The notes under the pieces: model-generated
What the model was told of the DNA's origin: nothing
The model's database searches: none
The model's input: only the letters and a program-made list of their open reading frames with translations
Shown here: piece by piece, positions 124-7,458 of the stretch
Position numbering within the stretch: the first letter of the stretch is position 1
Layout of the letters: each line of letters begins with the position of its first letter
DNA from: Tubiluchus corallicola
Taxonomy: Eukaryota > Animalia > Priapulida
Direction of reading: 5' to 3'
NCBI GenBank assembly: GCA_030141605.1
Contig: JAQGDQ010002527.1
Span: forward strand, 1-8,587
Length of the DNA stretch: 8,587 nt
Program-made: the position numbers and the translations under genes

Positions 124-1341
124 ATGATTATCAAGGAAATATCAAGATATAAAGATCAGGTAAAAATGATTTTAAACCAAATGGAAGGAATAAATAAGTG
201 GCAATTCGATTTTATGCTAGACATCTTCGGACTATTTCTTAGTATCAAAGGAAAGATGAACTTTCTTCAATTTGGTAGATATGGAAATCACTGTGAGCAA
301 CGTTATAGATATCAATTTGAAAAAGGGTTTGATTTTATGACTTTTAACAAAGAGTCGGTAATCCATTACGCAAGCAACCATCAAGCCATAGCCTTTGATC
401 CAAGCTATATAAGCAAGTCAGGAAAGCATACATCTGGGGCTGGTTACTTTTGGTCAGGATGTGCCGGCAAAACAAAATGGGGCTTAGAGATTGCAGGAAT
501 AGCAGCCGTTGATATTGATAATCATACAGCTTTTCATTTAGAAGCTATTCAAACCCCTAATAATCTTGAAGCAGAAAGTCTGGTTGATCATTACGCAAAT
601 GTTTTGATTCAACGCAAGGACAATCTGTTATGTGTATCAAAATACGTTTTGGCAGATGCCTATTTTTCAAAGAATAAGTTTGTAACCAAGCTTTGCGAAA
701 ATGGATTTGAAGTGATTAGTCGCCTGAGAGATGATGCTAACTTACAATACAAATTTTATGGTCAGCAAAAAGCTGGTAGAGGAAGACCTAGAAAATATGA
801 AGGAAAGATTGACTTTGATAATTTAAAATCAAAATATTTTGAATGCTTTGAGCAAAACGAAAAATGCAAAATATACGGAGCAACAGTTTATGCAAAATCA
901 TTAAAACGAGATGTTAATCTTGTTGTTGTTTTTACAAAAGGAACATCCCGAAAGTGGTCTCACAAGTTATACTTCTCTACTGATTTGCAAATGAAAGCCG
1001 AGACGATTCTTGAATATTATCAAGCCAGATTCCAGATTGAGTTCATTTACAGAGATGCAAAACAATATACCGGATTGAAAGACTGTCAGGCAAGAAGTGA
1101 AAATAAATTACATTTTCATTTTAATGCGTCTCTTACTGCAGTCAATTTGGCCAAGATTAACCACTGGTTAGCTATACCAAAAATCAATAGAAATGCTTTT
1201 TCTATGGCCGATATAAAAACAATGTATCACAATGAATTACTGCTAAATAGATTTTTTAGCGTGTTCGCGGTGAGACCAAACTTAACCAAAAATAAATCCA
1301 AAATCAGAGAATTAATAACTTACGGCACTATCGCTGCATGA
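124..1341 (+). CDS. DDE transposase, IS4 superfamily (IS701/ISH3-like), 405 aa
   Basis: Motifs AFDPSY (D1), VLADAYF (D2) and YQARFQIEFIYRDAKQ (Y-R-E-K signature with the catalytic E), plus a GRGRPRKY basic motif. Flanked by inverted repeats. Confidence 0.92.
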   Translation: MIIKEISRYKDQVKMILNQMEGINKWQFDFMLDIFGLFLSIKGKMNFLQFGRYGNHCEQRYRYQFEKGFDFMTFNKESVIHYASNHQAIAFDPSYISKSGKHTSGAGYFWSGCAGKTKWGLEIAGIAAVDIDNHTAFHLEAIQTPNNLEAESLVDHYANVLIQRKDNLLCVSKYVLADAYFSKNKFVTKLCENGFEVISRLRDDANLQYKFYGQQKAGRGRPRKYEGKIDFDNLKSKYFECFEQNEKCKIYGATVYAKSLKRDVNLVVVFTKGTSRKWSHKLYFSTDLQMKAETILEYYQARFQIEFIYRDAKQYTGLKDCQARSENKLHFHFNASLTAVNLAKINHWLAIPKINRNAFSMADIKTMYHNELLLNRFFSVFAVRPNLTKNKSKIRELITYGTIAA

Positions 1342-1491: not shown

Positions 1492-1607
1492 CCACCGACT
1501 CCACTCTCCTAAAGGATTCCAATCCCCTCCATTGCACAACTGAAACTTATTACAAATCGGATTTGAAACCCGCATTTCCTTATACTTTCTTTTATGTAAC
1601 TACTTTA

Positions 1608-2957
1608 TCAAGCTGCTTCCAGACTGGCAATCTTTTTCTTTAGTTGATTGATTTTCTTGTCTTTATACTTCTGCTGAAAGTCTGCCAAAGCCTGTGGATT
1701 AAATGCTTCTTTATTTGATACCATTTTATAATAGATGATTGCACGTTTCCGTGCCGTTGCGACAACTGCCTTTGGAGCACCAGCCCTTGCCCGTATCCTG
1801 CGATAGTGGTCTACCAAGGGACTTTTACTTTGCCATAAACTATTGGCCGCCATCCGGAATGCCTGGCCTGCGTGGTGTCGCTTTCTTTTGATACGGCTAC
1901 TTATTATTTTTCCTCCTGATATTTTTGTATTAGGTGCCAATCCCAACCAAGAGGTGAAATGATGCTCGGTTTTCCATTTGGACATATCTGCTCCTGCTTC
2001 AGAAACTATTGTCAATGCACTTATTTCGCTTATCCCAAAAACCTCCGTTACATCTACGTCTAATATTTCTTTGAGGTAGGCAGTAAGGTTGTATGGAATT
2101 TTGTGCTTTACATTTTGGACTTTCCGTTTTACATTTGGAATCTCCGGAATCACACCTTCATTTTTTGATGCAATTTGTTCTATTAATTGCTGTTCTATTT
2201 GTTTATCGCATTCACCAATCATGCTACGGTGTTCGCAGAATAATTTGTAGCACTGTTTAAGTTCAAACAAATGCTCCGTGGTCCAATAGCCTTCCAGCGA
2301 TTTAACAATATCTTCACGGCTTGCTTTTATCCGCCTATCCCTCATATCGGCAAGTACTTCCGGATTACGTTCCCCTGCCAATATTGCTTTTAAAATGCAC
2401 TGCCCTGTTTTTCCATCTATGTCACTAATGACCGTATGTATCTTGATGTTCATCAACTCTAATGCTTTCTGCATCCGGTTTAAATAGGTTGATGATGTAC
2501 GGACAAGGTTTCTCCTGTGGCGGACAAGGCTCCTTAATGTCCTGGTCATATTGTCTGGTTGGAAACTGGCGGTTAGCAAGCCGCAACTATGTAATTTTTG
2601 TATCCATTCTGCATCGCTTTCATCGTCTTTCCTGCCGGTTACATTTTTTACGTGCTTTGCATTTACAAGGCAAACCTCAAATCCATATTCCTGCAACAAC
2701 AGGAATAATGCAATCCAATATACACCGGTACTTTCCATTGCTATTGAAGTGATGCCATTTTCTTTAAAACATCTTGCAATTAAATGCAAATCCGTAGTAA
2801 AACAGCCAAAAGCACGTACTTCCAACTCTCTAGCACTAATTGGATAAGCGACCATCATTTCTGTATCAGACACATCGATACCTGCAACATTGGGATTGAT
2901 TACCTGCAATTGTGAAATTCTTTTCACTTGTTCTTTCTTTGTTTGAATTTTACCCAT
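1608..2957 (-). CDS. IS110-family transposase/recombinase (RuvC-like DEDD domain plus C-terminal Tnp domain), 449 aa
   Basis: VAGIDVS, IAMESTGVYW and GRKDDESDAEW supply the D-E-D-D residues. SWLGLAPNTKISGGK carries the conserved serine. The C-terminal KAVVATARK helix is also present. Confidence 0.96.
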   Translation of the reverse strand: MGKIQTKKEQVKRISQLQVINPNVAGIDVSDTEMMVAYPISARELEVRAFGCFTTDLHLIARCFKENGITSIAMESTGVYWIALFLLLQEYGFEVCLVNAKHVKNVTGRKDDESDAEWIQKLHSCGLLTASFQPDNMTRTLRSLVRHRRNLVRTSSTYLNRMQKALELMNIKIHTVISDIDGKTGQCILKAILAGERNPEVLADMRDRRIKASREDIVKSLEGYWTTEHLFELKQCYKLFCEHRSMIGECDKQIEQQLIEQIASKNEGVIPEIPNVKRKVQNVKHKIPYNLTAYLKEILDVDVTEVFGISEISALTIVSEAGADMSKWKTEHHFTSWLGLAPNTKISGGKIISSRIKRKRHHAGQAFRMAANSLWQSKSPLVDHYRRIRARAGAPKAVVATARKRAIIYYKMVSNKEAFNPQALADFQQKYKDKKINQLKKKIASLEAA

Positions 2958-2983
2958 GACTTTAGATTTAAGTGATTACTAAA

Positions 2984-3132
2984 ATTGCCCCGTGCCTGAT
3001 GGTCTTTGAGCGAGTAAATCTCTTATACGGCATCCAACTGCCAATAGGCACTCTTAAAACCATACAGAACCAGACTACCATGTGATGTCTATGCACCATA
3101 GGAAAAGGACGGTTTTACCTGCATGGGGCAAT
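2984..3132 (-). ncRNA. Candidate IS110 bridge/seek RNA
   Basis: An 11/12-bp closing stem (3121-3132 with 2984-2995) encloses two stem/internal-loop/hairpin domains. It lies in the long non-coding end upstream of the recombinase, where IS110-group guide RNAs are encoded. Confidence 0.65.
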
Positions 3133-3290
3133 ACTTAAAGTAATGAATCGCATGTTATTCTCCAAGGGGCTGGATGGAAGATGCTGGGGGACTACCAAAG
3201 TGTAAGCAAAAAATATGCAAATTTCATTAACATTAGAAGATAACAATCAATGTACAACCAATCAGCAAAAGAATTACTTTTGAAAATTAC

Positions 3291-3578
3291 TTAGAGCCAT
3301 ATGTTTTGAATCAGCAACCATACAATCACTAAGACCACCAAAACCAAGAACCACTTCGGAATAACAACACTCTCTTTCAATTTCCTTTCATGATTTATCA
3401 AAAGCATTTCAAGCCGCTCGGTATTCAAATCAAACTTTAGTTTGGAAGTTTTGAGTTTATGCAGTTGTTTTTTTATTTCCGGGGCAATTTCGTTAATGTT
3501 TTTACTGGTTTCCCGAAGCATGTCAATTTCGTGAATTAAAATCTCCAATAGCTTTTGTTGTGATAATTGTTTTCTCAT
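3291..3578 (-). CDS. Hypothetical protein, helical/coiled-coil with a C-terminal transmembrane helix, 95 aa; probable mobilization accessory protein
   Basis: Starts 3 bp after the relaxase stop. Hydrophobic tail WFLVLVVLVIVWLLI. Confidence 0.75.
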   Translation of the reverse strand: MRKQLSQQKLLEILIHEIDMLRETSKNINEIAPEIKKQLHKLKTSKLKFDLNTERLEMLLINHERKLKESVVIPKWFLVLVVLVIVWLLIQNIWL

Positions 3579-3581
3579 GGC

Positions 3582-4376
3582 TTAAATTCTGAATTTGTTT
3601 TTACGTGCATGTATTTGATTTCTCTGGGACTCCTTCCTGTACTGGTTCCTGTACCGAATATGGTACTCGATGTTTTGTTGAATTAGTTTTTGTAGCCTGG
3701 CTGCGCTAAACGAGCGGTCTACCGTACTGGCTTTTATGGATTCTTTTCCAATATGAAATTTTAGCCCCACGACTTTACCATCCGAAGCTTGCTTTAAGTG
3801 GCAGCGAATGCCAAGGTGCTGCATCATTTCAGCATATTCAAAAATATTGCGTGGATTCTGGGGCAGTATTCTGCTATGTGCTTCTTTTATCTGCTCTCGA
3901 AGGCGCATTTCTTTTTCTATTTGTATTTCTTTGGCAGTGGTAAAGCCTCTGGCTTTCGCCATACTTTCGGCAATGCGTTGCGCCTTCTTGCTAATGAAAT
4001 GGTCTTTGTAAGCTCTCCCATTGTAATCAATCCGGTTCACAAAAATGTGTAGGTGTCGGTGGTCTTCATCGCAATGCAAAAATGTAATCGACTGGTTTTC
4101 TTTCAGGTTCATCCTTGAAAGAAAATCATCCGATAATTTTTCAAAATCCTTATTTGTAAGTTGTTTTCCAACCGGAATAGACGGGCTAAGCACAAACGAA
4201 ATTGTATTTCGTTGGCAGCGTGCATTTAAATTCTGAAAAACCCGGAACTCTTTTGCAATTTCTTTTCCGTTTTCACCAATTACGTTGTTACGGCTAATTT
4301 CAACAGCACCCTGTTTCTCCTTGGCATAATCGATGGCATTGGAAGCATGAGATATGCTTTGTGCTTTTCCAATCAT
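3582..4376 (-). CDS. Relaxase/mobilization nuclease (MOBP-like), 264 aa
   Basis: N-terminal Tyr motif AIDYA, motif II SFVLSP, and His triad FLHCDEDHRHLHIFVNRI. Lies directly downstream of mobC. Confidence 0.92.
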   Translation of the reverse strand: MIGKAQSISHASNAIDYAKEKQGAVEISRNNVIGENGKEIAKEFRVFQNLNARCQRNTISFVLSPSIPVGKQLTNKDFEKLSDDFLSRMNLKENQSITFLHCDEDHRHLHIFVNRIDYNGRAYKDHFISKKAQRIAESMAKARGFTTAKEIQIEKEMRLREQIKEAHSRILPQNPRNIFEYAEMMQHLGIRCHLKQASDGKVVGLKFHIGKESIKASTVDRSFSAARLQKLIQQNIEYHIRYRNQYRKESQRNQIHARKNKFRI

Positions 4377-4663
4377 TGCTCAAATTTTCCGAGGTGGTTT
4401 AATCAGCTTAATCACTTCTTCCAGTTCATAAATATAAAAGTGTTTTATTAAATTACCGATGATTTAAAATTCCGGTGGTAGGCATGCAGGTTGTTGTAAA
4501 CATCTAATTCTTCCGGTGAAAATCGCAAAGTGACTTGCATGTTCAAGGCAGCACGGCGCGAAAATTCACTGGTGCTTACGCCGCATTCTTTTGCAGCCAG
4601 GGCAATAGCTTTCTTCTCGGAACGGCTTACCCTAAATGAAATATATTTTGTTCTGACATTCAT
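4373..4663 (-). pseudogene. mobC: Frameshifted MobC-like ribbon-helix-helix relaxosome accessory protein
   Basis: N-terminus RTKYISFRVSRSEKKAI...CGVSTSEFSR is RHH-like. The ORF stops at 4448. A shifted frame from ~4461 continues IGNLIKH...ELEEVIKLIK. A second shift at ~4397 gives HLGKFEQ*, whose TGA overlaps the relaxase ATG (ATGA). Confidence 0.75.
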
Positions 4664-4708
4664 ATTTAAAAAAATTTAGCATTAAACTTTAAATTGGATT
4701 TTTTCTTC

Positions 4709-4763
4709 TTTGCGAGCTTGGGAGCAAAGTGGGAGTGACATAAGTGCAACGTTGTCACCTCTC
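4709..4763. other. Candidate origin of transfer (oriT)
   Basis: GC-richer intergenic patch just upstream of mobC with inverted repeats TTTGC/GCAAA (4709-4713/4724-4728) and GTGACA/TGTCAC (4735-4740/4753-4758). The position is typical for oriT; no nic site was identified. Confidence 0.5.
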
Positions 4764-4783
4764 GAAATAGAAATAGCTAACCG

Positions 4784-5682
4784 CTACAGCCTATGTTGTC
4801 GTCGATTCGAAGTGGTTAGGTATTCGTTCAGGTCTTTTTTGAAACCATAAATTGCAGACATGTCAACACTGTTGTTAAAGTCTGCCAATAACTGTTTTGT
4901 TGCTTTTTTTCCTGCAAGGTCATTATCTAAATACAGTCCAATTTTAGTATATCTGGATGCAATATTTTTAATTCGGCTGATAAATGAAACAGAATTCAAA
5001 ACGATAAAATCCGACTTTTTGGGTAGGTCAGGATAAAGGGAAATCAGACTGAAAAAATCAGACTGAAAAAATCAAACATTCCTTCGGTAATTGCCAACCT
5101 GTTATTCGCTTTAGAAAAAAAGGAAAAATCTTTTGGAGCTGCAGCATTTTTATAATATGAGTTTCGAAGCTCCCAACCGCCGGAAACATTTTTCAACCCG
5201 ATAGCAAAATAGGTCGAGTTCTTAAAATTGTAATGAACCTGTTTTGCATATTTCGTTACTTGCTTCGGATTAACTTTTCTTTTCAATAAATAATTAAGTA
5301 GTGCAGGATGTTGAATTGGCAAAACCTTTTCAATCTTTATTTCATCTTCCGGTTTCAACCCGGCAAAAGTATTTTGCTGTTGAAAAGAGAAAGATGGAAC
5401 TGTATTTTCGAGAATAGCCAATGATTCCTGAACGGTACATTGGTGTTTCATTTCAATTACCAAGTCGATAATGTTTCCTCCTTTACCAAGACCATGGTCG
5501 TACCATCGGTTTAAAATCTTCGAAACCTTAAAAGATGGAGTACTTTCTTTACGAATCGGACTTAAATACCAGGCTTCTTTTTGGTTCTCCCGGAGAGGAG
5601 AAAATCCGTTCTTTTTTAGAAATTCAACGATTGATATTTCACGAGCTGTATCGCATTGTAGTTTTTCTTTTTTCATGAGCAA
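4784..5682 (-). pseudogene. Toprim-domain DNA primase with an N-terminal zinc-finger-like domain, frameshifted by a 14-bp tandem duplication
   Basis: ORF 5044-5682 contains YLSPIRKESTPSF..WYDHG and ITEGMFD; ORF 4784-4999 contains YLDNDLAG. Removing one AAATCAGACTGAAA copy fuses them without stops (EGMFDFFSLISLYPDLPKKSDFIVLNSVSF), giving 294 aa from the TTG at 5682 or 292 aa from the ATG at 5676. Confidence 0.9.
5041..5074. repeat. 14-bp tandem repeat, 2.4 copies
   Basis: AAATCAGACTGAAA at 5041-5054 and 5055-5068, then AAATCA at 5069-5074. Confidence 0.95.
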
Positions 5683-5707
5683 TTTATTTAAAAATTGAAA
5701 TTCTGCC

Positions 5708-5887
5708 TACCTACTTGCCTAAATCCATATATTCAAATGGTTATGGTACAGGTAGGAGCTTTTTTTATCCTACCTATCTTACCTTTTAGGTAACTTAGGT
5801 AGGTTTAAGGTAAGTTGATATTCATTCATCTTACCTAAACAGAACATAGTGTTTATAATACTTTTGGAACCTTTAGGTAACCAGGTA
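5708..5887. repeat. Cluster of ten AGGTA/TACCT pentamers with a central palindrome; candidate replication origin
   Basis: TACCT at 5708, 5771, 5780 and 5832; AGGTA at 5750, 5788, 5797, 5808, 5875 and 5883. A 14/16 inverted repeat pairs 5769-5784 with 5788-5803. Confidence 0.75.
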
Positions 5888-5926
5888 ACTTATTTTATGC
5901 TTTTTATGCAAAAAAGCTAAAGCATA

Positions 5927-7096
5927 TTAATCATTGCCAAAATGTGCTTTGGCAAGGTATCCCCACACTTGTCTTTTAGGATGCTTGATTCTTTGGAAGT
6001 TAAATCCAGACAAAGCTTTACCTATATTTATATGGTTTAGTCTCAGGTTTACAAAACCTAATGCAATTTCAACATCCGAAGCAGTTACAAAATCATCCAT
6101 GTCTTGAGACTTCTCATAGTACCTCGCAATTAATTCCTGTTCAGTTGAAAGCCTTGTGTACTTCTTGTTGCGTTCTTCGTTTTCAGTAACGTCTTTCAAG
6201 GATAATTCCGGGTTGAAATCTTTTGAACGGTAGGCATAGTGGCATGCTTGCTTCCAAACTTTATCAATATCAATAACATTTGAATATTCAAAATCGATTT
6301 TGTCTTTGAGCTCAAAGCAAAGCCAACGGACAGAGCCGGTTTCATCACTAAGAAACGAAGCCATGTTTGTGGAACCGATAAAAGAACAAATCCGGGGCAG
6401 GGTAGTGTTCTTTTTATCGTATGGCAACCTTTCGTTAATAAATGTTTTGGAGAAAAAAGCTTTGAGTGCATTTACATCCTTTTTGGAAAGCACCGCCAGC
6501 TCATCAAGATTAAGCAGGAAATTCCGGCACAATTGTATCCTTGCATCTTTGTCGTTGCTTATATCTTCAGCCATGTATTCCGATAAAGTCGGAGGACACA
6601 AAAATCGGCACCAGGTTGATTTGCCGGAACTTTGTCCTTTATGGCTTAATATAAATGCCTGCTTGTTGAAGTAACTTGGTTCAAGAGCACATTTTACCGC
6701 TCGAACCAACCATTTTCTGAAATGATAAAGAAATGCTTCGTCTTCATAAGTGGGAACATACGAGCAAAGATTTTTAATATGGTCTGTGCCATCCCAGTCA
6801 GGCAACGATTTAAAATAGTTTTGAATCGGGTTATGTTTTGCAATTAGTTCCGACTTTATGAAAATTTCCAGTTTCCCCGGAGAGATATCGATACCGGCTT
6901 TGGTTAACTCAATTATTAATGAATTGATATTTAAATAATGCCACAAGTTTTCATCATGTAACGAAATCTGAAAATCGTGCGATATTTCATTGTACCTGAT
7001 ATCGTATTTGTCAAACAAATAATCAGCAACATAATCGAAAATTGTTTTCTTTTTCGGATTAATAGCGACATATAAATTGCTTTCTTTTGCTTCCAT
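5927..7096 (-). CDS. VirE/VapE-like P-loop ATPase (putative helicase), 389 aa
   Basis: Walker A GQSSGKST, Walker B LLNLDEL, RLPY motif, SFIGSTN and DETGSVRW. C-terminal winged-helix-like segment (IGKALSGFNF...WGY). Confidence 0.9.
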   Translation of the reverse strand: MEAKESNLYVAINPKKKTIFDYVADYLFDKYDIRYNEISHDFQISLHDENLWHYLNINSLIIELTKAGIDISPGKLEIFIKSELIAKHNPIQNYFKSLPDWDGTDHIKNLCSYVPTYEDEAFLYHFRKWLVRAVKCALEPSYFNKQAFILSHKGQSSGKSTWCRFLCPPTLSEYMAEDISNDKDARIQLCRNFLLNLDELAVLSKKDVNALKAFFSKTFINERLPYDKKNTTLPRICSFIGSTNMASFLSDETGSVRWLCFELKDKIDFEYSNVIDIDKVWKQACHYAYRSKDFNPELSLKDVTENEERNKKYTRLSTEQELIARYYEKSQDMDDFVTASDVEIALGFVNLRLNHINIGKALSGFNFQRIKHPKRQVWGYLAKAHFGND

Positions 7097-7170
7097 TTTT
7101 CTAAATGTTATTGAATGATACCCTTGTTTGAAAAAAGGTTCTCGGATAAATAAAATTGTAGTAAATGGTT

Positions 7171-7458
7171 TTATGTTTTTTTATTCTCAATTACGAAATT
7201 GAGAGCATCTTCTTTTATTTCATCAGCCGATTTTCGGGCATTCTTGAGTAACCATTGATTAAGTTTTTCCTTGTCAAAAAATATAACCTTGCCATTGGGT
7301 TTGGAATGTGGGATTACCCCGGAGGAAGTTAGTTTGTACAGATAACTGCGAGATAAGCCAGTGTAATCACAAGCTTCGTCGAAAGTCAATACTCTCTTAT
7401 TCGAAATTATGAGTCGCTCGATTCGGTCGAGCCGTTCTTCAATCTTTAAATTGTCCAT
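7171..7458 (-). CDS. Helix-turn-helix excisionase-like DNA-binding protein, 95 aa
   Basis: VLTFDEACDYTGLSRSYLYKLTSSGVIPHSKPNGKVIFF is typical of Bacteroidetes MerR-like/HTH_17 excisionases. It is the first gene of the replication/mobilization operon. Confidence 0.92.
   Translation of the reverse strand: MDNLKIEERLDRIERLIISNKRVLTFDEACDYTGLSRSYLYKLTSSGVIPHSKPNGKVIFFDKEKLNQWLLKNARKSADEIKEDALNFVIENKKT

What the first reader, a model, noticed from the sequence alone, without database searches (positions are those of the whole stretch)
2984..3132. Candidate bridge/seek RNA with a closed three-way-junction fold upstream of the IS110 recombinase
Seen (minus-strand RNA): the outer stem AUUGCCCCAUGC/GCACGGGGCAAU encloses two domains. 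Domain 1 is AACC/GGUU (3114-3111/3071-3068), then an internal loop (GUCCUUUUC.. / ..UAGUCU), then a CUAUG..CAUGG hairpin. Domain 2 is AUGGUUUU/AAGACCAU (3063-3056/3006-2999) plus GAGUG/CGCUC, then an internal loop (CCUAUU / GUAUAAGAGAUUUACU), then a GGCA-GUUGGA-UGCC hairpin. Most inner wobble pairs are G-U on the minus strand, the transposase sense. Established: IS110 elements such as IS621 encode guide RNAs with target- and donor-binding loops in their non-coding ends. Inference: this is the guide RNA of a Bacteroidetes RNA-guided recombinase, and the long enclosing stem may mark a distinct architecture. An alternative pairing, CCAUGCAG/CUGUAUGG (3126-3119/3067-3060), competes with the outer stem.
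Basis: partly seen in the sequence, partly recalled or inferred. Interest (0 to 1): 0.8.

Follow-up and report, generated by a model that had tools for sequence, protein, structure and literature searches.

The report
Closed-junction bridge RNA, mirrored guides
This stretch encodes the predicted guide ("bridge") RNA of a small jumping gene: across relatives its two loops change in step with the DNA each copy sits in and with each copy's own end, so it likely steers the jump; the system is of a known kind, but its guides lie in mirror order to the textbook case and a conserved stem is predicted to close the whole RNA.

Summary
Real, and of a known kind. The region lies in the left end of a 1,605-bp IS110 element (1589-3193, minus strand, AG core at both ends, 449-aa recombinase). 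Loop 1's 3' side matches the left flank in 45 of 53 distinct guide/flank pairs (0 of 10,000 shuffles), its 5' side matches the right flank more weakly, and loop 2's 3' side matches the element's own right end in 104 of 106 loci. It is therefore a bridge RNA by covariation; binding and recombination were not tested. The outer stem covaries (7 of 12 pairs) and recurs with unrelated sequence in distant relatives, so the closed junction holds. Differences from IS621: guide order is reversed (IS1111-like, though upstream of the gene), the second donor guide seems reduced to about 3 bp, and the junction is closed. The recombinase resembles the ISPpu9 group (compared by eye). This scan already reported reversed-order bridge RNAs, one with a closing stem, on other DNA. 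New variant of a known kind; interest 0.42.

The parts
1589..3193 (-). IS110-family element, both AG cores included (1,605 bp)
   Evidence: Ends from conserved end motifs in about 100 homologues, six identical copies with different flanks in one genome, and two empty sites with a single AG
1608..2957 (-). DEDD recombinase, 449 aa; D28, E75, D112, D115 and S347 present
   Evidence: PF01548 + PF02371; NF033542 222 bits, cut-off 140; motif positions; residue roles inferred from the IS621 sequence seen
3192..3193 (-). left core AG
3194..3198 (-). left target TTGGT (guide ATGGT; 4 of 5 match)
1589..1590 (-). right core AG
1591..1607 (-). right end (left donor), ends ACATAAA before the core
1577..1588 (-). 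right target, and right arm of the target hairpin (AAGTATAAG, 1587-1579)
3198..3206 (-). left arm of the target hairpin (CTTACACTT)
   Evidence: empty site folds with z -3.8, 1 of 300 shuffles
3150..3157 (-). candidate internal promoter element (TAAC at +35 to +39 from the core in 90 homologues; TAACTTTG in the 50%-identity group; degenerate here)
   Evidence: likeness to the Bacteroidetes -7 element TAnnTTTG is recalled, not tested
3133..3139 (-). 5' arm of the extra outer helix P0
2967..2973 (-). 3' arm of P0, 10-16 nt upstream of the start codon
3121..3132 (-). 5' arm of the closing stem P1
2984..2995 (-). 3' arm of the closing stem P1
3068..3114 (-). target-binding domain (stem 3114-3110/3072-3068, hairpin 3098-3083)
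3099..3109 (-). 5' side of loop 1: right-target guide (complement of the top strand: core plus about 2-4 nt, register variable; weak in this copy)
3075..3081 (-). 3' side of loop 1: left-target guide, 5 nt + AG, same sequence as the top strand
3073..3074 (-). UC after the guide: predicted handshake bases, equal to the first two bases of the left end
   Evidence: 84 of 86 loci; invariant in the RNA, so no covariation; role inferred from IS621
2999..3063 (-). donor-binding domain (stem 3063-3056/3006-2999, hairpin 3042-3029)
3043..3045 (-). AUU at the 5' side of loop 2: possible minimal right-donor guide (core + 1 base, one wobble)
   Evidence: run of 3 pairs in 76 of 84 loci, 4 in 7, 2 in 1; no covariation shown
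3020..3028 (-). 3' side of loop 2: left-donor guide GUAUAAGAG, 7 nt + AG; in this copy one further G-T wobble against the right end

Best explanation
The region encodes the predicted bridge RNA of an IS110-family recombinase, likely made as the 5' leader of the recombinase mRNA; its first loop matches the insertion site and its second loop matches the element's own end, so it likely guides recombination between the circularised element and the target at a shared AG core. SHOWN by sequence comparison: the element ends, the AG core, the two-loop fold closed by an outer stem, and guide/target and guide/donor covariation. Order in each loop: the top-strand complement comes first (5') and the top-strand copy second (3'), the reverse of IS621. 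Read from the other DNA strand the core is CT and the RNA-DNA geometry is that of IS621, including handshake bases behind the 3' guide and an ATA/TAT micro-repeat around the donor core. The simplest reading is the same chemistry with the RNA-plus-gene cassette facing the other way between the recombination sites. The long guides are the 3' ones (target 5+2 nt plus 2 handshake bases; donor 7+2 nt) and the 5' ones are short. INFERRED, untested: transcription from a promoter inside the left end, processing of the RNA, binding to a recombinase tetramer, strand exchange as in IS621, handshake pairing that favours insertion, and a second job of the closing stem in hiding the translation start as in ISPpu9. 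This copy sits in the loop of a small DNA hairpin that recurs empty in a relative's genome.
For: Left-target guide vs left flank, positions -5 to -1: identity 0.94, 0.92, 1.0, 1.0, 0.96 against shuffled 0.52, 0.31, 0.56, 0.30, 0.49; 45 of 53 distinct pairs perfect (from 84 loci); 0 of 10,000 shuffles; position -6 at chance. At least 31 changes of the 5-nt guide on a protein tree with 64 tips scored, so there were many separate reprogrammings. Right-target guide: run after the core 2.41 vs 1.23 +/- 0.11, 0 of 10,000 (75 distinct pairs from 77 loci). Donor guide vs right end: 104 of 106 loci, 11 of 13 distinct pairs, shuffled mean 1.1 and maximum 6. Structure: 93.4% of cells paired, 22 of 42 pairs with two-sided change, against 9.2 shuffled and at most 13 slid. 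Closing stem: own 3' arm is the best partner in 11 of 13 distant representatives. Right-end/AG/left-end junctions are assembled in L108, L110, L128 and L098. Catalytic motifs are present.
Against: No direct evidence of the RNA: all runs laid were contigs; one metatranscriptome contig covers 2814-3063 with 2 differences but shows no strand, start or end, and no circle or empty-site joint was seen. In this copy the right-target guide pairs cleanly only with the core and one base left of it, the left guide has one mismatch, the donor guide has a wobble that 104 relatives lack, the TAT micro-repeat reads CAT, and the protein has 9 private changes at otherwise conserved columns, so this copy may be less active. 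No real right-donor guide was found. The shuffles ignore kinship. End motifs and arm anchors were chosen by eye. No Rfam match and no PDB sequence match at E<=1.
Confidence: 0.88

Rival explanations
1. seekRNA mode: the transcript is cut and the working guide is the target domain alone (about 3114-3068); the donor loop acts separately or only in circle formation, and the closed junction is a precursor fold.
For: Short target-only RNAs dominate and suffice for ISEc11 and ISEc21 (PMC11187229); target-loop-only RNA is abundant for CazIS110-1; the right-donor guide here is rudimentary. Compatible with most of the best explanation.
Against: The donor loop covaries strictly with the right end and the closing stem is kept across phyla.
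Confidence: 0.2
2. The fold is only a translation-control element of the 5' leader, as described for ISPpu9, with no guide role.
For: In ISPpu9 weakening the leader fold raised translation 26-fold (PMC8450116); P0 ends 10 nt before the start codon.
Against: It cannot explain why loop bases track flanking DNA about 110 nt away and the right end 1.4 kb away.
Confidence: 0.03
3. The working guide is the antisense (plus-strand) RNA, like Asr9 of ISPpu9.
For: Plus and minus strands fold almost equally well (-48.8 vs -50.0 kcal/mol); ISPpu9 makes a stable antisense RNA over its leader.
Against: G-U outnumbers A-C 127 to 65 on the minus strand; the minus-strand reading reproduces IS621's loop geometry and handshake position, while the plus-strand reading does not (inference).
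Confidence: 0.03
4. The loop/flank identity is a DNA copying artefact (junction sequence duplicated into the left end), not RNA pairing.
For: Both long guides have the same sequence and strand as the junction DNA.
Against: The 5' guide matches as a reverse complement; identical elements with one guide sit at six sites that share the match (L008-L012, L019); the matches are confined to internal loops of a covarying fold.
Confidence: 0.02

Closest known systems
ISPpu9 / MITEPpu9 (Pseudomonas putida; PMC8450116, PMC12288879)
   Same: IS110 group; recombination at an AG dinucleotide; long conserved left box and short right box (43 and 16 bp there); long structured leader; insertion into palindromic repeats. 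The representative of the cluster labelled ISPpu9;ISPsy35;ISWpi13 in Durrant's Supplementary Table 1 shares about 45 of 85 residues of the RuvC part with this protein (counted by eye).
   Different: In the passages read, ISPpu9's guide segments are not mapped. No downstream ssr9-like copy in this window (one match of model R1). Antisense RNA and internal promoter not tested here. ISPpu9's own protein was not aligned.
IS621 bridge RNA and recombinase (PMC11208160, PMC13626964)
   Same: Upstream non-coding end; target loop then donor loop; each an internal loop capped by a hairpin; dinucleotide core (CT when read from the other strand); handshake-like bases after the 3' guide; ATA/TAT micro-repeat around the donor core.
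   Different: Guide order reversed relative to the gene; long guides on the 3' side; 5' donor guide about 3 bp instead of 8-9; both domains closed by an outer stem instead of a 5' hairpin plus two free stem-loops; protein 449 aa against the 315-330 aa of the IS621/Piv branch.
IS1111-group seekRNAs (ISEc11, ISKpn4, ISPa11; PMC11187229)
   Same: [quoted passage not shown]
   Different: RNA upstream instead of downstream; no 11-13-bp subterminal inverted repeat; protein far longer than 330-350 aa.
ISPpu10 (10.64898/2026.03.19.712850, abstract only)
   Same: Target carries a DNA stem-loop that could add specificity, as for this copy and L001.
   Different: A different IS110 branch; here hairpin targets are not clade-wide (median z +0.35 over 68 sites).

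Membership tests
IS110-family bridge recombinase system | DEDD RuvC domain plus Tnp domain with conserved serine | tested here: met
IS110-family bridge recombinase system | Long non-coding end with a conserved RNA fold holding two internal loops | tested here: met
   left end 234 nt, right end 17 nt
IS110-family bridge recombinase system | Target loop covaries with both sides of the target | tested here: met
   (left strong, right weaker and with shifting register)
IS110-family bridge recombinase system | Donor loop covaries with both sides of the donor junction | tested here: inconclusive
   left donor met; right donor only about 3 near-invariant pairs
IS110-family bridge recombinase system | Short core shared by target and donor; single copy in empty site and in the joined ends | tested here: met
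IS110-family bridge recombinase system | RNA is expressed, binds the recombinase and is needed for recombination | not testable with these tools
   only contigs available
IS621-type bridge RNA | 5' side of each loop pairs with the bottom strand (left), 3' side with the top strand (right), gene-sense frame | tested here: not met
   reversed
IS621-type bridge RNA | [quoted passage not shown] | tested here: not met
   closed by an outer stem
IS1111 group | Top-strand match before bottom-strand match | tested here: met
IS1111 group | Subterminal inverted repeats of about 11-13 bp | tested here: not met
   only TAT (80 of 91 left ends) and ATA (92 of 98 right ends); none among the 25 longest inverted repeats listed
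IS1111 group | Non-coding region downstream; transposase 330-350 aa | tested here: not met
   upstream; 449 aa
ISPpu9-like clade | AG core, long left box and short right box, structured leader | tested here: met
ISPpu9-like clade | Protein homology to ISPpu9 | tested here: inconclusive
   about 53% over 85 residues, by eye, to the cluster representative; no alignment to ISPpu9 itself and no tree with named IS
ISPpu9-like clade | Native internal promoter and antisense RNA | not tested
   only a conserved TAAC motif was noted

The most novel reading that the evidence does not exclude
A large, multi-phylum IS110 clade (ISPpu9-like) uses a bridge RNA that breaks the published IS110/IS1111 split: upstream position but IS1111-type polarity, as if the cassette had been inverted between the recombination sites. 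Its donor loop is effectively one-armed (9-nt left-donor guide, almost no right-donor guide, the left end being read by protein or by the target loop's handshake bases), and the closing stem both assembles the two loops into one junction and shuts off recombinase translation until the RNA is cut out.
Probability: 0.4. Interest if true: 0.62.

Novelty: new variant of a known kind. Interest (0 to 1): 0.42.

Why it matters
It supplies a base-level guide map, backed by dozens of natural reprogramming events, for a clade of bridge recombinases whose RNA guides were not found mapped in the papers read. It shows that guide order does not follow RNA position or the IS110/IS1111 label, which bears on how the two groups arose. 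A self-closing RNA scaffold native to Bacteroidota could be a useful editing part, though its short guides predict low specificity. The kind of system is established, large surveys already report diverse bridge RNA folds, and this scan met the reversed order elsewhere, which caps the surprise.

Tried and rejected
No genome is held for the window, so its own copy number is unknown. Rfam: 0 matches at E<=1. PDB by sequence: 0 at E<=1. Viral contigs: no relative. RNAalifold on the MAFFT alignments recovered the two domains and P0 but not P1; P1 was scored by direct pair counts instead, on a structure drawn from the window, so those counts lean towards it. Counting long-range pairs in single-sequence folds did not separate real from shuffled sequences; an enclosing helix was visible in the MFE of 22 of 25 loci (by eye), not in L150, L151 or L153; the arm-swap test replaced it. 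The donor-guide parse was wrong and partly wrong (10 loci mis-parsed; 94 of 106); one search is the corrected run. The 5' side of loop 2 holds a 10-nt copy of the donor junction in 28 of 85 loci, but it does not follow changes of the ends (by eye) and is absent from distant relatives: rejected as a guide. Hairpin targets as a clade rule: rejected (median z +0.35, 6 of 68 at z<=-2). The two-mismatch search for the empty site gave 10 hits against 19 for the control, so the count is no enrichment; only the two one-mismatch hits, both inside the hairpin, are used. Sequencing runs: contigs only, small shares in RNA runs, no joints; no habitat or expression claim is made. A discontinuous pairing of the window's 11-nt right-target guide with distal AAGG of the target is possible by eye but untested. 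No fold, complex prediction or tree with named IS proteins was run.

Full report
Setting. The flagged stretch lies 27-175 nt upstream of a 449-aa minus-strand ORF (2957-1608) with the two IS110 domains (PF01548, PF02371) and an NCBIfam 'IS110 family RNA-guided transposase' score of 222 bits against a cut-off of 140. The DEDD motifs and the C-terminal serine are present. No genome is held for the window, so I worked from relatives: 69 loci from named genomes, the close ones mostly Bacteroidota MAGs, the best 80 of 369 from metagenomes, and five plasmid loci. Viral contigs gave none.

Element ends. Relatives share a left-end motif starting AG-TCCCTCA and a right-end motif GTTAYATAAG-AG. One genome has six identical copies with different flanks. 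Several contigs contain the joined form, right end-AG-left end (L098, L108, L110, L128). Two empty sites in L001's genome carry a single AG. In the window the cores are 3193-3192 and 1590-1589, giving a 1,605-bp element with a 234-nt left end and a 17-nt right end.

The fold. Alone, the stretch folds only slightly better than shuffles (z -1.81) and Rfam has no match. On 69 aligned left ends (the window plus 68 of 81 distinct close homologues) a revised structure has 93.4% of cells paired and 22 of 42 pairs with changes on both sides, against 9.2 for shuffles and at most 13 for slid controls; the structure was drawn from the window, and the control ignores kinship. The closing stem has 7 of 12 such pairs. 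A covariance model from this alignment finds the RNA upstream of 50%-identity Bacteroidota relatives and, weakly, Nostoc (E 0.001), but not the Acidobacterial or Proteobacterial ones. In 13 hand-anchored representatives that include those groups, the 5' arm pairs best with its own 3' arm in 11, though the arms differ in sequence. So the closed junction is a clade trait. A further helix (3139-3133/2973-2967) extends the closure to 10 nt before the start codon.

The guides. Left ends and right ends were located by their own motifs, independently of the loops (106 sequences at 66% identity or more, 86 with left flank and guide, 84 with right flank and guide). The five bases before AG on the 3' side of loop 1 equal the five bases of the left flank in 45 of 53 distinct pairs; per-position identity is 0.92-1.0 against 0.30-0.56 shuffled; the sixth base is at chance; no shuffle of 10,000 reached the observed sum. 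The guide changed at least 31 times on a protein tree of 64 scored tips. The 5' side of loop 1 is complementary to core plus right flank: identity 0.51, 0.71 and 0.60 at the first three bases against 0.40, 0.34 and 0.33, and a best-register run of 2.41 against 1.23 (75 distinct pairs; tandem and AG-run flanks dropped). The 3' side of loop 2 equals the last bases of the right end in 104 of 106 loci down to 47% protein identity, and in 11 of 13 distinct combinations (shuffled mean 1.1); the exceptions are a mis-located end (L078) and the window itself, which has one G-T wobble. The two bases after the target guide equal the first two of the left end in 84 of 86 loci, the position of IS621's handshake bases (PMC13626964). 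The 5' side of loop 2 offers only about three pairs to core plus left end (76 of 84 loci) and no covariation was shown.

Polarity. [quoted passage not shown] Siddiquee et al. report the reverse order for IS1111-family RNAs, which usually lie downstream, and the IS621 order for ISEc21 (PMC11187229). This element has the IS1111 order with an upstream RNA, no long subterminal repeats and a 449-aa protein. Read from the other strand its core is CT and its donor reads ATA-N8-CT-N2-TAT (TAT in 80 of 91 left ends, ATA in 92 of 98 right ends), against ATA-N7-CT-N2-TAT for IS621 (read). My inference is unchanged chemistry with the cassette inverted relative to the sites, and guide lengths swapped between the loop sides.

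This copy. Its target is the loop of a DNA hairpin (z -3.8, 1 of 300 shuffles; L001 z -2.3), but hairpin targets are not general (median z +0.35 of 68). The copy departs from consensus in several places (guide mismatch at -5, donor wobble, CAT for TAT, nine private protein changes) and may be ageing. Public runs gave only contigs: one metatranscriptome contig runs from the donor domain into the ORF (2814-3063, 2 differences), which shows neither strand nor processing, and no joints were seen.

Closest known. ISPpu9 recombines at AG, has 43-bp and 16-bp end boxes, uses a native promoter rather than a junction promoter, and has a 244-nt leader whose fold limits translation 26-fold (PMC12288879, PMC8450116). 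The representative of the ISPpu9 cluster in Durrant's Supplementary Table 1 shares about 45 of 85 RuvC residues with this protein (by eye). That makes a double role of the closing stem plausible, but it is inferred.

Is it in print? A search for 'bridge RNA' + 'IS110' + 'three-way junction' found 0 papers; 'reversed order' occurred in none of the 30 papers listed of 51; the ISPpu9 search and the Bacteroid search showed no guide map for this clade in what I read. But Durrant et al. show six diverse folds and mention multi-loop donor structures in IS1111, and a 2026 preprint built 86 models, many deviating from IS621; I could not see those figures, Durrant's Supplementary Table 5 (not in the stored part of the file) or the preprint's supplements, and they may already contain this fold. 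What I saw: PMC11208160 outline, opening two parts, section 12, second part of the extended legends, supplement file 3 (search hits, part 1); PMC11187229 parts 1-5 (through the Discussion); PMC8450116 passages and section 18; 10.64898/2026.10.21.760802 section 8 and passages; passages only of PMC12288879, PMC13626964, 10.1101/2025.05.14.653916, 10.1101/2025.10.25.684509, 10.1101/2024.06.21.599552 and 10.64898/2026.08.14.744561; abstract only of 10.64898/2026.03.19.712850. The Bacteroidetes promoter consensus is recalled. Five earlier notes of this scan describe reversed-order bridge RNAs on other DNA, one with a closing stem and one naming ISPpu9; I had noted the reversed order before reading them and do not count them as support.

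Verdict. Observation partly confirmed, interpretation supported. A bridge RNA by covariation (confidence 0.88), a new variant of a known kind: closed junction, reversed order, apparently one-armed donor loop. Interest 0.42.

Noticed in passing
L007, L081, L128, L133 (also L143, L144, L126, L148): Some elements aim their target guide at the family's own consensus right end, and these carry a changed right end and donor guide of their own: 4 of 4, against 6 of 75 others (Fisher p 1.4e-4; L143 and L144 were mis-parsed into the second group and belong to the first). None of 79 elements has a target guide equal to its own end. Looks like sibling targeting with self-avoidance; kinship not controlled.
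   Followed up: partly
window 3198-3206 and 1579-1587; L001; L155:1500-1525; L156:1490-1520: The target of this copy and of L001 is the loop of a small DNA hairpin that occurs empty twice more in L001's genome, a REP-like repeat; one empty copy matches the window's left guide exactly. A contig in run X3 shows a relative with the same left flank, another the same right flank as L001.
   Followed up: partly
window 3291-7458: Mobilisable element on the minus strand: excisionase-like HTH_17, VapE-like protein, CHC2 zinc-finger primase-like ORF, NikA/MobC, relaxase and a 95-aa ORF; the IS110 sits just downstream.
   Followed up: no
window 124-1341: DDE transposase of IS701/IS4 type, below NCBIfam cut-offs.
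   Followed up: no
L152:2283-2483: Nostoc element has a second, weak match to the RNA model downstream of the recombinase (E 0.005), reminiscent of ssr9/MITEPpu9.
   Followed up: no
L150, L153: Proteobacterial relatives appear to sit in the A-run of an IS3-like element, with AC rather than AG at the left junction and the same AC in the 3' guide (by eye).
   Followed up: no
L047-L050, L053, L062, L066: Acidobacterial relatives insert just ahead of the start of what looks like another IS110-family gene (by eye).
   Followed up: no
L008-L013, L073, L090, L091, L106, L130, L132, L134, L137: A frequent target is a Bacteroidota repeat with the motifs TAATAAGGTT and CTACTAAGGTT about 25-30 nt apart, or their reverse complement.
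   Followed up: no
L117, L043: L117 has a left end joined directly to another right end without a matching target guide (possible donor-donor insertion); L043 is a hybrid of a close-type left end and a distant-type element.
   Followed up: no
window 3186: A contig of run X2 (same sample as X1) lacks one base in the G run of the left end.
   Followed up: no
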